Part shown: positions 15,310 through 18,560 of the stretch, piece after piece | Position numbering within the stretch: the stretch's first letter is position 1 | Layout: each line of letters opens with the position of its first letter | Assembly (NCBI RefSeq): GCF_009914755.1 | Contig: NC_060925.1 | Direction: 5' to 3' (one strand) | DNA length: 64,000 bases | Origin: the human T2T-CHM13v2.0 reference genome, Homo sapiens | Made by a program: the position numbers and the translations under genes | Notes under the pieces: generated by a model | Databases searched by the model: none | What the model saw: the letters and a program-made list of their open reading frames with translations, nothing else | What the model was told of the DNA's origin: nothing

Positions 15310-15951
15310 GGCCAGGTGCGGTGGCTCACGCCTATAATTCCAGCACTTTGGGAGGCCGGGTAGATCATTTGAGGTCACAAGTTTGAGACCAGCCTGGCCA
15401 ACACGGTGAAACCCCGTCTTGACTAAAAATGCAAAAATTAGCCGGGCATGGTGGTGTGCCCCTGTAATCCCAGCTACTGGGGAGGCTGAGGCGGGAGAAT
15501 TGCTTGAACCCGGGAGACAGAAGCTGCAGTGAGCCGAGATCGTGCCACTGCACTCCAGCCTGGGCAACAGAGCGAGAACCCATCTCAAAAAAAAAAAATT
15601 GTTATTTTGTTGTTATTGTTGTTTTTGAAGACAGAGTCTCACTCTGTTGCCCAGGCTGGAGTGCGGTGGCATGATCTTGGATTGTGTTCTTCCAGGGTTG
15701 CAGAGAGAAGTGCAACAGCGTCTCATTGCAACCTCTGCCTCCCAGGTTCAAGCAATTCTCCCGCCTCAGCCTCCCAAGTAGCTGGGATTACAGGAGTGCA
15801 CCATCACACCCAGCTAATTTTTGCATTTTTAGTAGAGATGGAGGTTTCACCATGTTGGCCAGGCTGGTCTCGAACTCCTGACCTCAGGTGATCCGCCTGC
15901 CTTGGCTTCCCAAAGTGCTGGGATTACAGGTGTGAGCCACCATGCCCAGCC
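15310..15951. mobile_element. Abutting tail-to-tail inverted AluS pair, 15310-15598(+) and ~15600-15951(-)
   Basis: The A tail runs directly into the (TTG)n tail of the antisense copy, which carries a 41-nt non-Alu insert. Confidence 0.93.
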
Positions 15952-16439
15952 TAAGAATAATAACTTTATAACTATGAAAAATGTGTTACATATTCACCAT
16001 TTTGCCAGCATTAATCTCAAAGCATAAGTTTTACCTTTTGGGGATAAAGAGATAGATTGTGTTTTAGCCATATGACCAATGTAGAAACAAGCTAAGGTTA
16101 ACTCCTCATCTAATGAATAGGCCCGATAAAAAAGTTGGTTGACCACAACATGAATAAATAAATAACCATAAGCTTGGAAATGCTACCTGTAGTATTTCAG
16201 AGTGTCGATCACATTTGTAGTCATCACTTAAAGAATTAATGTCTGCCAATGTTATCATCTAAAATGTATTTACAGAGGTCAGAAGAGCTATGTCTGTCCT
16301 CCTCTATGCAAAGAGGTGATGACATCAAGGGGTATGTCACAAGCCAAAGTTTAGTTAGCCTAAGTTAGTTAGCTGGTTTGCAGTTTTTATCCACTAAGTC
16401 TGATCTTCTGACCCCTCAGTTTTACAACTTTCCACTCTC

Positions 16440-16862
16440 TGTGCTGCATAGCACCTCTCCACTTCTGAGTTAATCATTTCTTTGCCATTATCTGGCAAGA
16501 ATTCTTATCTCTTTTGCTGTCACTTTATAACAGGGTCCTCTTATCAACCTGCATAGAGTCATGTGATGAGTCAAAGCCTATCAAAAGTTTCCATTCTTCT
16601 GATTAGAAACCATCATGAAACTGGATACATGGTTTACAGCAGGTCACTAATGTTGGAAAAAGTACAGAGTCCAGGGAAAGACTTGCTTGTAACTTTATGA
16701 ATTCTGGATTTTTTTTTTTCCTTTGCTTTTTCTTAACTTTCACTAAGGGTTACTGTAGTCTGATGTGTCCTTCCCAAGGCCACGAAATTTGACAAGCTGC
16801 ACTTTTCTTTTGCTCAATGATTTCTGCTTTAAGCCAAAGAACTGCCTATAATTTCACTAAGA
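16440..16862 (+). promoter_or_regulatory. NR5A2: NR5A2 exon 1 proximal promoter and 5' UTR (CpG-poor, endoderm-type motifs)
   Basis: Repeat-free DNA upstream of the ATG. HNF1-like GTTAATCATTTCT 16469-16481; four GATA motifs on the minus strand (~16488, 16505, 16541, 16578); AP-1 TGAGTCA 16567-16573; NR5A site CCAAGGCCA 16774-16782. The TSS cannot be fixed from sequence. Confidence 0.75.
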
Positions 16863-16926
16863 ATGTCTTCTAATTCAGATACTGGGGATTTACAAGAGTC
16901 TTTAAAGCACGGACTTACACCTATTG
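16863..16926 (+). CDS. NR5A2: NR5A2 coding exon 1 (MSSNSDTGDLQESLKHGLTPI/G)
   Basis: ATG at 16863; 64 nt; donor TTG|GTAAGT at 16927; phase 1 matches both exon 2 and exon 3. Confidence 0.97.
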
Positions 16927-18099
16927 GTAAGTAGGAGTTTCTCTATTGATCATCTATTTATTCTGCTACTACATACATATAATTTAATCTTGTTGATGGA
17001 TTTTGCATTTTAAGTCATGGCTTTTCCTATTATGTTTATTAAAAGCACACAATAAGCCTATGTATATATATCACACATTTATCTTTCTTGCAGTTCAAAA
17101 AAAGCAAATGGATATTTCAACATATGAATATTATTCATTATATCTAGTGTTTACTGGTGTCATTCTAATACCCTAATCAGCCAGAAAATATAATTTATAC
17201 TTTATCAATTTCAACTTTAATATTTTCTGATAATTTTTAATCAGAAATAATAAGCTAAAATTTGAACAATTTGAAACAAGTTAATCATATTGAGTGATCA
17301 TTGATCAAACTTTAACAGATAGCTGTCAAGTATTTGTTACTTTTCAACCCACACAAAAGTATGGTGTCTTATTCTCTGCTTATACCGTAAAAAATTTTCA
17401 TTTTATTTTCCTGGGGAATGAAAGTCATGCCCCCACCTCCAAAAAAAAAAAAAAAAAACCAAAAAAACTAGACCATCATTAGTAAAGGATTTGAAGAGCT
17501 ACTGTTTCTCGCAACAATTAGTATATTTTGTTTTTACAAACAGAAATAAGTAAATAAAGCTACTATTCATTTAAAAAATAGAGTTACAAACTTATGAATT
17601 TTATAGCAAGACTACATTCAATTAATTCTAAAAGTAAAGGACTGAAGGGAAGTGATTCCCAGTGATCTGTAATTATTTGTCTGTTGGAAGTCAGGCCCTT
17701 CTGCCTTTCCCCAGTTTTTGAAGGACCTGTGCCTTTTCTGGCAGCATTTGCCTAGGCTTTCAGACTGGAATTTCCCTCCGAATTTGCAGGGGCCTGTCAT
17801 GAGCTCTCTGAGTCTCAGCTCCATTATAACAAGAAAGAAAATCAAGGCTTGAGTTTTTCCTCTTTTTTCCTTCCTAGTCAGCTGACTCCACAGAATGCAG
17901 TGGAGTCACAGATTGCTTTTTTTATGGGCCAACTACACCCTAAAGTATATCACTTGAGGAAATGTTTACCAAAAATGTTCTATACTTACGAAAAAGAAAA
18001 CATGGGGAAGGTAAGCAGGGTGTAACACACAATCAATTGTTCTGCAGATAACACAGAAAATACAGGCACAAGAAAGATGAGAGAGCAGCACACAACCAT

Positions 18100-18560
18100 T
18101 TCGCATCTTTTTCGTCGGGCAGAACCGCCGCGGTGCGCAGGCAAGGAGTCCTTCCCGGCAGCTCCGCGCAGCTCCGGTTCCGCGTCCGGGGCCGCAGCTA
18201 GAGCGCGCTCGGGCCGGAGACGCGGACTGCGCGCGCACGGGGGACGCGCGCTCGGGGGCTCGCGCCCGCGCGGGCGGTCTTGGGCTCCTGCTGCGCGCAG
18301 CCCCAGCTGGCCGCTGCCAAAATAGAGTTGAGCTGGGTCGGGAGACCACGCACGCCGATCCCTCACAGTCTCCCCCACACCCCATGGGTGAATTAAAGAG
18401 GGTAAGGTAGGGGAAAGAGACGCTGTTGCACTTTTCTCTGCAACCCTGGAAGAACTGTGTTTCCAGCTACCGCACGCGCAACTCACATCGCAAGGGACCG
18501 AGGCGGTACACTCTGAGCGTAAACAGAGAACACCTGCAGCTCTGGAATCGGTCCCACCGC
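18100..18560. promoter_or_regulatory. CpG island 1 (intron 1)
   Basis: Very CG-dense, with many CGCG/GCGC words; strong donor-like sites AAG|GTAAGC (18011) and AGG|GTAAGG (18402) nearby. Confidence 0.85.

What the first reader, a model, noticed from the sequence alone, without database searches (positions are those of the whole stretch)
15681..18455. 39-bp inverted copy of intron 1 CpG-island DNA inserted into a promoter-proximal Alu
Seen: the antisense Alu reads ...gatcttgg[41-nt insert 15681-15721]ctcattgcaacc..., with no Alu bases lost. Positions 15686-15724 match the reverse complement of unique sequence 18417-18455 at 38 of 39 nt. The return junction uses 3 nt of microhomology (CTC). There is no poly-A and no TSD. 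Inference: a locally templated insertion (polymerase theta end-joining, or FoSTeS/MMBIR) copied from 2.7 kb away. It lies ~80 bp from the centre of an abutting inverted Alu pair, a known break-prone structure. The two copies now form an inverted repeat bracketing the NR5A2 promoter and exon 1, and may have moved an intronic regulatory motif upstream. One mismatch suggests a young event.
Basis: partly seen in the sequence, partly recalled or inferred. Interest (0 to 1): 0.8.

Follow-up and report, generated by a model that had tools for sequence, protein, structure and literature searches.

The report
Copied DNA patch inside an Alu
A 41-base patch, 39 bases of it copied backwards from unique DNA 2.7 kb away in NR5A2 intron 1, sits inside an Alu about 1 kb upstream of the gene; it is a real repair or replication scar of a known kind, with no sign of function.

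Summary
An antisense Alu (window 15600-15954) carries a private 41-nt insertion (15681-15721). None of the 18 other near-full-length Alus in the window has it, and no Alu base is lost or duplicated. Bases 15686-15724 are the reverse complement of 18417-18455 at 38 of 39. The 3.1-Gb assembly holds only these two copies at up to 3 mismatches. The donor lies in the intron-1 CpG island. One junction shares 3 nt (CTC). The other has 5 unassigned bases (ATTGT) whose best local match is at chance level.

The best reading is a germline, locally templated insertion made by a long-range template switch of the MMBIR/FoSTeS type, in one arm of an almost abutting inverted Alu pair. It fits classic polymerase-theta scars poorly: those are 3-30 bp, use flanking templates and have short tracts (PMC7165422).

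- "Young" is unproven.
- A regulatory effect has no evidence.
- The insert does not weaken the Alu hairpin (-263.5 against -264.4 kcal/mol).

Similar short local duplicates are common nearby: 9 in 264 kb, and 3 of the 4 tested are unique in the genome. Overall it is a tidy new example of a known kind. Interest is low to moderate.

The parts
15303..15599 (+). Sense Alu with A-tail; left arm of the inverted (tail-to-tail) Alu pair
   Evidence: Sequence. Inverted-repeat pairs I1, I2, I4 and I6 with the antisense Alu. Sub-threshold Metazoa_SRP match typical of Alu. 7.85% non-CpG divergence (19 of 242) from the window's majority Alu consensus.
15600..15954 (-). Antisense host Alu: T-rich tail at about 15600-15625, then the body; right arm of the pair
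   Evidence: 7.35% non-CpG divergence (18 of 245) and 14 of 30 CpG-site positions changed. The register of the inverted repeat with the left Alu shifts by exactly 41 nt across the insert (I2 arm coordinates sum to 31214, I1 to 31255).
15681..15721 (.). 41-nt insertion private to this Alu
   Evidence: Only the host row has residues in these 41 alignment columns against 18 other Alus, with no adjacent host gaps.
15681..15685 (.). 5 unassigned 'filler' bases (ATTGT) at the left junction
   Evidence: Not matched by the donor flank. The best covering match is a 9-mer at 16055-16063. That is chance level: 119 of 400 control 5-nt cores have a match of 9 nt or more within 3 kb.
15686..15724 (+). 39-nt inverted copy of intron-1 DNA; its last 3 nt (CTC, 15722-15724) are shared with the Alu (microhomology)
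   Evidence: The single mismatch is at 15707 (G here; the donor's reverse complement has A, donor base 18434).
18417..18455 (-). Donor (template) sequence in NR5A2 intron 1
   Evidence: No flanking Alu and no self-hits in the flanks. It contains the hairpin GTTGCA-N8-TGCAAC, and the copy ends in the loop of a second small hairpin, CTGGAA-N9-TTCCAG (fold z-scores are not significant).
17750..18999 (.). Intron-1 CpG island that holds the donor (approximate bounds)
   Evidence: GC 0.51-0.62 and CpG o/e 0.58-0.97 in 500-nt windows. Exon 1 itself (16725-16926, from the annotation supplied) lies in AT-rich, CpG-poor DNA.

Best explanation
This is a germline mutational scar. After both Alus were in place, a DNA strand being synthesised at position 15680/15681 left its template. 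The cause was either a break or a stalled fork in the right arm of the Alu quasi-palindrome. The strand primed by microhomology on single-stranded DNA 2.7 kb away in the intron-1 CpG island and copied 39 nt of the opposite strand. It then returned to exactly the next Alu base. This is a long-range template switch of the MMBIR/FoSTeS or out-of-register repair-synthesis type. One junction uses CTC (3 of 3 bases, 5 of 6 with the next bases). The other carries 5 untemplated or unassignable bases.

Shown: the insertion, its polarity (unique DNA copied into the Alu), its single donor, the junction anatomy and the inverted-Alu context.
Inferred: the pathway, the role of the Alu hairpin as the trigger, the germline timing, and the absence of function.
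For: Insertion and polarity: only the host Alu of 19 aligned has the 41 columns, and nothing is lost. The donor has non-repeat flanks.

One donor only: two copies in 3.1 Gb.

Cis proximity: a donor 2.7 kb away is what proximity-based template switching predicts. Experimental patch insertions came from 18 of 24 chromosomes with no preference (PMC5110952, passage).

Orientation and microhomology: an inverted copy with junction microhomology matches the MMB-TI signature. About 100 such germline events of 25 bp or more were reported per person, some with several templates (PMC8421209, passages).

Context: the two Alus are 82-85% complementary with 15 nt between arms. As one strand they fold into a hairpin of about 260 bp at -263.5 kcal/mol. 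Full-length inverted Alu pairs with spacers of 24 bp or less are strongly depleted (I:D = 0.076), and hairpin-induced breaks are the proposed cause (PMC3215922, passages).

Timing: the insert differs from the donor at 1 of 39, while both Alus are 7.4-7.9% from the local consensus. By my own Poisson arithmetic, P(1 or fewer differences) is 0.02 if both copies are neutral and 0.22 if the donor is frozen, for an insert as old as the Alu. It is therefore probably younger than the pair.
Against: The left junction has no microhomology and 5 orphan bases, which looks as much like end joining with filler as like a clean template switch.

The template distance (2,695 nt between copies) is far outside the 100-bp window used to define MMB-TIs, so membership of that class rests on analogy.

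Nothing in the sequence separates a DNA template from an RNA or cDNA template.

The insertion point is 74 nt from the palindrome centre, neither at the tip nor at the base, so the link to hairpin cleavage is loose.

No other human or primate genome could be consulted. Age, fixation and even support from sequencing reads are untested.
Confidence: 0.62

Rival explanations
1. Patch capture by end joining (class-2 templated sequence insertion). A double-strand break in the Alu was filled with a short cDNA reverse-transcribed from nascent NR5A2 intron-1 RNA, or with a released DNA fragment from the CpG island. Filler bases went in at one end and microhomology joined the other.
For: Class-2 TSIPs have no TSD and no poly-A, and show microhomology and non-templated bases. 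Intronic sequences are among their templates (PMC5110952, passages and section 8). All of these features are present here. The donor lies in a transcribed intron. A cDNA of the sense pre-mRNA would have exactly the insert's plus-strand sequence (inference from strands). The insert is one unbroken 39-nt tract plus 5 filler bases.
Against: Reported patches come from distant sites on many chromosomes with no preference. A donor only 2.7 kb away would then be an extreme coincidence unless nascent RNA acts in cis. No recipient base was lost, whereas microdeletion is listed among the usual end-joining features. No splice junction or other RNA hallmark is present in the patch.
Confidence: 0.2
2. Classic polymerase-theta end joining (TMEJ) with a templated insertion (TINS).
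For: Microhomology at one junction, an inverted-repeat type of insert, and no large deletion. Pol theta is described as generating direct and inverted templated insertions (PMC7165422).
Against: TINS are described as 3-30 bp identical to flanking DNA, with primary synthesis tracts rarely above 10 bp, longer ones built from several rounds, and AT-rich content. Here there is one 39-nt tract, 2.7 kb away, from GC-rich DNA.
Confidence: 0.08
3. The insert was born with the Alu. The L1 reverse transcriptase jumped from Alu RNA to NR5A2 pre-mRNA and back during target-primed reverse transcription.
For: The orientation is compatible: first-strand cDNA of this antisense Alu is the plus strand, and the insert equals cDNA of the sense intron-1 RNA (inference).
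Against: It needs two jumps with a return to exactly the next Alu base. The insert differs from the donor at 1 of 39, whereas about 3-6 differences are expected at the Alu's age (plus my own arithmetic).
Confidence: 0.03
4. Assembly artefact, or a change private to the sequenced cell line.
For: Only one assembly could be examined. No reads or other genomes were available.
Against: A mis-assembly would not be expected to place an inverted 39-mer with one mismatch plus 5 extra bases precisely between two adjacent Alu bases. This is argument, not a test.
Confidence: 0.04
5. Functional exaptation. The copy moved an intronic regulatory motif upstream of the promoter, or the 39-nt inverted repeat or the bulge in the Alu palindrome is selected.
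For: The donor lies at the edge of a RefSeq-annotated enhancer (18389-18889, from the annotation supplied) and in a CpG island.
Against: There is no RNA family at the donor. The insert changes the stability of the Alu hairpin by under 1 kcal/mol out of about 264. Similar short local duplicates are frequent in the neighbourhood, as expected for neutral scars. No conservation data were available.
Confidence: 0.03

Closest known systems
MMBIR-type templated insertions (MMB-TI; Osia et al. 2021, PMC8421209)
   Same: An insertion of 10 bp or more that is an inverted copy of a nearby template, with junction microhomology. They occur as germline variants without a larger rearrangement, and multi-template events are known.
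   Different: The template is 2.7 kb away, not within 100 bp. One junction has 5 orphan bases instead of microhomology.
Class-2 templated sequence insertion polymorphisms (Onozawa and Aplan, PMC5110952)
   Same: No TSD and no poly-A; microhomology and filler bases at the junctions; the donor stays intact; intronic donors are known.
   Different: The donor is on the same chromosome only 2.7 kb away, rather than at a distant site. There is no recipient microdeletion. Polymorphism in humans was not tested.
Polymerase-theta templated insertions (TINS; Carvajal-Garcia et al. 2020, PMC7165422)
   Same: A templated insert of the inverted-repeat type with microhomology.
   Different: Length is 41 against 3-30 bp. 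The template is not in the flanking DNA. There is one long tract instead of tracts of 10 bp or less. The template is GC-rich.
Short-range template-switch mutations in great apes (Walker et al. 2021, PMC7954356)
   Same: A transient switch to the opposite strand that creates an inverted copy. Thousands are fixed in hominid genomes: 4,017 significant events.
   Different: Those events use templates within a small local region and rewrite existing sequence. This one is a net 41-nt insertion templated from kilobases away. A search of that paper's two held supplement files for the locus found nothing, but the search used GRCh38 coordinates recalled from memory.
Fragile closely spaced inverted Alu pairs (Cook et al. 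2011, PMC3215922; Lobachev et al. 2000, recalled, paper not held)
   Same: A tail-to-tail full-length pair with a near-zero spacer, able to form a long hairpin.
   Different: The described outcome is deletion or exclusion of the pair. Here the pair survives, with a small insertion in one arm.

Membership tests
MMB-TI (MMBIR templated insertion, as defined for MMBSearch) | Insertion of at least 10 bp | tested here: met
   41 nt.
MMB-TI (MMBIR templated insertion, as defined for MMBSearch) | Insert is an inverted copy of its template | tested here: met
   38 of 39 to the reverse complement of 18417-18455.
MMB-TI (MMBIR templated insertion, as defined for MMBSearch) | Template within 100 bp of the insertion | tested here: not met
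   2,686 nt lie between the arms. The criterion is quoted from PMC8421209.
MMB-TI (MMBIR templated insertion, as defined for MMBSearch) | Microhomology at the junctions | tested here: inconclusive
   CTC (3 nt; 5 of 6 with the next bases) at the right junction. There is none at the left, where 5 orphan bases sit.
Polymerase-theta TINS | 3-30 bp insert identical to DNA flanking the break; tracts rarely above 10 bp | tested here: not met
   41 nt, with one 39-nt tract copied from 2.7 kb away. Definition from PMC7165422.
Class-1 TSIP / L1-mediated insertion | Target-site duplication of 5 bp or more, poly-A tract, TTTT/A target | tested here: not met
   No duplicated Alu bases. No A-run and no TTTT/A at the junctions.
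Class-2 TSIP | No TSD or poly-A; end-joining features (microhomology, non-templated bases, microdeletion) | tested here: met
   No TSD or poly-A, 3-nt microhomology and 5 filler bases. Microdeletion is absent.
Class-2 TSIP | Donor in a distant genomic region, derived from RNA | tested here: inconclusive
   The donor is only 2.7 kb away in cis. It lies in a transcribed intron, but an RNA origin cannot be read from the sequence.
Class-2 TSIP | Polymorphic among humans | not testable with these tools
   Only one human assembly is held (one search states that it has no relatives here).
   Exactly 2 places in 3.1 Gb at up to 3 mismatches. The 121-nt donor query finds only itself and the insert.

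The most novel reading that the evidence does not exclude
The patch was copied from nascent NR5A2 intron-1 RNA, or from an R-loop at the CpG island, acting in cis on a break in the fragile inverted Alu pair. That would make it a natural, polarity-resolved example of transcript-templated break repair in the human germline. The strand logic allows it, because the insert equals the cDNA of the sense pre-mRNA, and nothing in the sequence excludes it.
Probability: 0.12. Interest if true: 0.6.

Novelty: new member of a known kind. Interest (0 to 1): 0.25.

Why it matters
Because the recipient is an Alu, the ancestral state can be read without an outgroup. That makes this a clean single-locus illustration of a kilobase-range, inverted templated insertion with no loss of recipient bases, sitting in the arm of a near-abutting inverted Alu pair. 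Tools that search for templates within about 100 bp would miss such events. A genome-wide census of inserts inside Alus could measure how far templates reach, and whether transcription or replication direction sets the donor. This locus alone does not answer an open question, and nothing found here indicates an effect on NR5A2.

Tried and rejected
1. A second template for the 5 orphan bases. The best covering matches were a 9-mer at 16055-16063 and 8-mers at 18027-18034 and 53273-53280. I rejected these as chance: 119 of 400 control cores reach 9 nt or more within 3 kb, and 335 of 400 do so in the whole window. By eye, ATTGTGTT also resembles the plus-strand donor flank ACTGTGTT (7 of 8). I did not test this further and treat it as unproven.

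2. Known RNA at the donor. Rfam at E up to 1 over 15000-19500 gave 16 matches. Fifteen lie in the Alu DNA of 15040-15950 (SRP and mostly Alu-derived miRNA families, below their gathering scores) and one is a weak match at 16168-16209. None is at the donor, 18417-18455.

3. The insert as a defuser of the Alu palindrome. Folding energy changes by 0.9 kcal/mol. Rejected.

4. Donor hairpins as drivers. Two small stems exist, but the folds are not better than shuffles (z -0.69 and -1.07). The insert-bearing strand folds somewhat better (z -2.35, 3 of 200 shuffles).

5. Dating from published great-ape template-switch lists. No hit in the 2 held supplement files. The coordinates were recalled, and that method targets short-range events, so this says little.

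6. Papers on an Alu in the NR5A2 promoter. The search returned 3 papers, none on this locus (listing only).

Two papers were not held.

The background therefore rests on 264 kb only.
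Full report
**What is in the sequence**

A sense Alu with its A-tail (15303-15599) is followed almost at once by an antisense Alu. The antisense Alu's T-rich tail starts at about 15600 and its body runs to 15954. The antisense Alu reads ...GATCTTGG, then 41 foreign bases (15681-15721), then CTCATTGCAACC....

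I aligned it with 18 near-full-length Alus found in the window (18 of 38 BLAST HSPs). The host is the only row with residues in a run of 41 columns, and these map to 15681-15721. It has no gaps in the 15 columns on either side. The Alu is therefore interrupted without loss or duplication of its own bases. There is no A-run at either junction.

Bases 15686-15724 equal the reverse complement of 18417-18455 at 38 of 39 positions. None of 100 dinucleotide shuffles produced any match. The repeat finder extends the pair to 42 nt at 95%. The last three bases of the copy (CTC) are also the next three Alu bases, and 5 of 6 agree if the comparison is carried on. The first five inserted bases (ATTGT) are not matched by the donor flank.

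**Is it a dispersed repeat?**

No. The window's assembly can be searched (3.1 Gb, 24 contigs). A 121-nt query around the donor finds only itself and the Alu insert. The 39-mer at up to 3 mismatches finds one forward and one reverse place, with none for the backwards control. The tool warns that its counts are lower bounds for very common words. This sequence is evidently not one of those. The second condition, support from long reads, cannot be tested here.

**Polarity and context**

The copy in the Alu is embedded in repeat DNA: flank self-hit depths are 66 and 148 within 264 kb. The intron copy has flank depth 0. The simplest reading is that unique intron DNA was copied into the Alu.

The donor lies in a CpG island inside intron 1, with GC 0.51-0.62 and CpG o/e 0.74-0.97 between 17750 and 18749. 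Exon 1 (16725-16926, from the supplied annotation) lies in AT-rich, CpG-poor DNA. Rfam finds nothing at the donor. All but one of its 16 weak matches fall in the Alu DNA of 15040-15950.

The two Alus are 82-85% complementary with 15 nt between the innermost arms. The register of the inverted repeat shifts by exactly 41 nt across the insert. As a single strand the pair folds into a hairpin of about 260 bp. The insertion point is 74 nt from the centre.

**Age**

The host Alu differs from a majority consensus of the window's Alus at 18 of 245 non-CpG positions (7.35%). Its partner differs at 19 of 242 (7.85%). This consensus is a crude stand-in for a subfamily consensus.

If the insert were as old as the Alu, 39 nt should show about 5.7 differences when both copies drift, or about 2.9 when the donor is frozen. 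The chance of seeing 1 or fewer is then 0.02 or 0.22 (my own Poisson arithmetic, not a tool result). The insert is therefore probably younger than both Alus, and the inverted pair probably existed when the insertion happened.

"Young" in any stronger sense is not shown. One mismatch in 39 is compatible with anything from a new mutation, with the mismatch made by an inaccurate polymerase, to tens of millions of years. No other human or primate genome was available.

**Mechanism**

Three literatures describe the closest things.

1. Polymerase-theta scars (TINS). These are 3-30 bp, identical to DNA flanking the break, built from tracts that rarely exceed 10 bp, and AT-rich (PMC7165422, passages). 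The present event fails each of these criteria.

2. MMBIR-type templated insertions. These are inverted copies of nearby templates flanked by microhomology. They occur as germline variants, about 100 per person at 25 bp or more, sometimes with several templates (PMC8421209, passages). The present event matches except for the 100-bp template window, which is a search setting, and the microhomology-free left junction.

3. Class-2 templated sequence insertions. These are break patches without TSD or poly-A, with microhomology and filler bases. They are thought to be reverse-transcribed RNA, and intronic donors are known (PMC5110952, passages and section 8). The junctions match. However, those donors come from distant sites on many chromosomes with no preference, so a donor 2.7 kb away needs a proximity effect.

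I therefore favour a long-range template switch during replication or repair synthesis (confidence about 0.6). A cis-acting RNA or DNA patch is the main rival (about 0.2).

The inverted Alu pair is a plausible trigger. Full-length inverted pairs with spacers of 24 bp or less are strongly depleted (I:D 0.076), and hairpin-induced breaks are the proposed cause (PMC3215922, passages). Distance and divergence between inverted repeats lower their fragility (PMC10164571, abstract start in the listing only). The causal link at this locus remains inference.

**Ideas tested and dropped**

- A second template for the five orphan bases. The 9-mer GATTGTGTT recurs 374 nt downstream, which would make a neat three-jump event. 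But 119 of 400 control cores have a match at least as long within 3 kb, so the bases stay unassigned.
- Donor hairpins. The donor has two small hairpins, and the copy stops in the loop of one, but these folds are no better than shuffles.
- A stabilising effect on the Alu palindrome. Removing the insert in silico changes the hairpin energy from -263.5 to -264.4 kcal/mol, so the insert does not defuse the palindrome.

**How unusual is it?**

I joined the window to the next 200 kb and looked for local pairs of 28-300 nt, at 92% identity or more, 50-20,000 nt apart. There were 34 such pairs. Of these, 25 lie wholly in high-copy repeats and 8 lie in locally single-copy DNA. The present pair is the ninth: it failed my depth filter only because Alu hits overlap its edges.

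Of 4 of the 8 sent to the whole genome, 3 have just two copies: a 78-nt inverted pair 2.2 kb apart, a 41-44-nt inverted pair 76 nt apart, and a 49-nt direct pair 1.7 kb apart. The fourth belongs to a dispersed family with 23 matches. The other 4 were not tested.

Short, nearly identical local duplicates are therefore frequent here, at least 4 in 264 kb. This fits a common neutral mutational process.

**Function**

Nothing supports a function. The two 39-nt copies do bracket exon 1, and the donor touches an annotated enhancer. But no motif library or conservation data were available, and the structure argument failed.

**Verdict**

This is a real, well-defined example of a known kind of mutation.

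Noticed in passing
L014:5198-5275 and L014:7516-7594 (NR5A2 gene body, downstream of the window): A 78-79-nt inverted pair, 97% identical and 2.2 kb apart, with only these two copies in the genome. It may be the same kind of event as the finding, but there is no repeat context to give polarity.
   Followed up: partly
L018:7393-7433 and L018:7509-7549: A 41-44-nt inverted pair, 95-98% identical and only 76 nt apart, unique in the genome. This is the geometry of a short-range MMB-TI or a hairpin-forming template switch.
   Followed up: partly
L005:5790-5838 and L005:7554-7602: A 49-nt direct pair, 94% identical and 1.7 kb apart, unique in the genome.
   Followed up: partly
L024:307-404 and L024:1546-1643: A 98-nt inverted pair, 95% identical and 1.1 kb apart. 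It belongs to a dispersed repeat family (23 genome matches at 76-90%), so it is probably two ends or two copies of a transposable element and not a templated insertion.
   Followed up: partly
L010:6447-6584 / 7586-7724; L018:1660-1692 / 2203-2235; L018:7463-7502 / L019:0-30 region; L022:6525-6556 / 7605-7636: Four more short local pairs (139 nt direct, 33 nt direct, 40 nt direct and 32 nt inverted) in locally single-copy DNA (given there in joined coordinates 120447-, 195660-, 201463- and 240525-). Their genome-wide copy number was not checked. The locus coordinates here are my own conversion.
   Followed up: no
window 45920-46100 / 48146-48323 and 47177-47348 / 50755-50927: Two longer low-copy repeats in the window: 181 nt inverted at 86%, and 173 nt direct at 90%. 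They probably belong to an interspersed repeat or an old segmental event. They were not identified.
   Followed up: no
window 15553-15669: The two Alu tails and their adjacent arms form a hairpin. It gives weak, below-threshold matches on both strands to miRNA families, several of them known to derive from Alu (mir-1303, mir-1954, mir-3572).
   Followed up: no
window 16250-17750 versus 17750-18999: The annotated first exon of NR5A2 lies in AT-rich, CpG-poor DNA (GC 0.27-0.38, CpG o/e 0-0.18). The CpG island starts about 1 kb downstream, inside intron 1.
   Followed up: no
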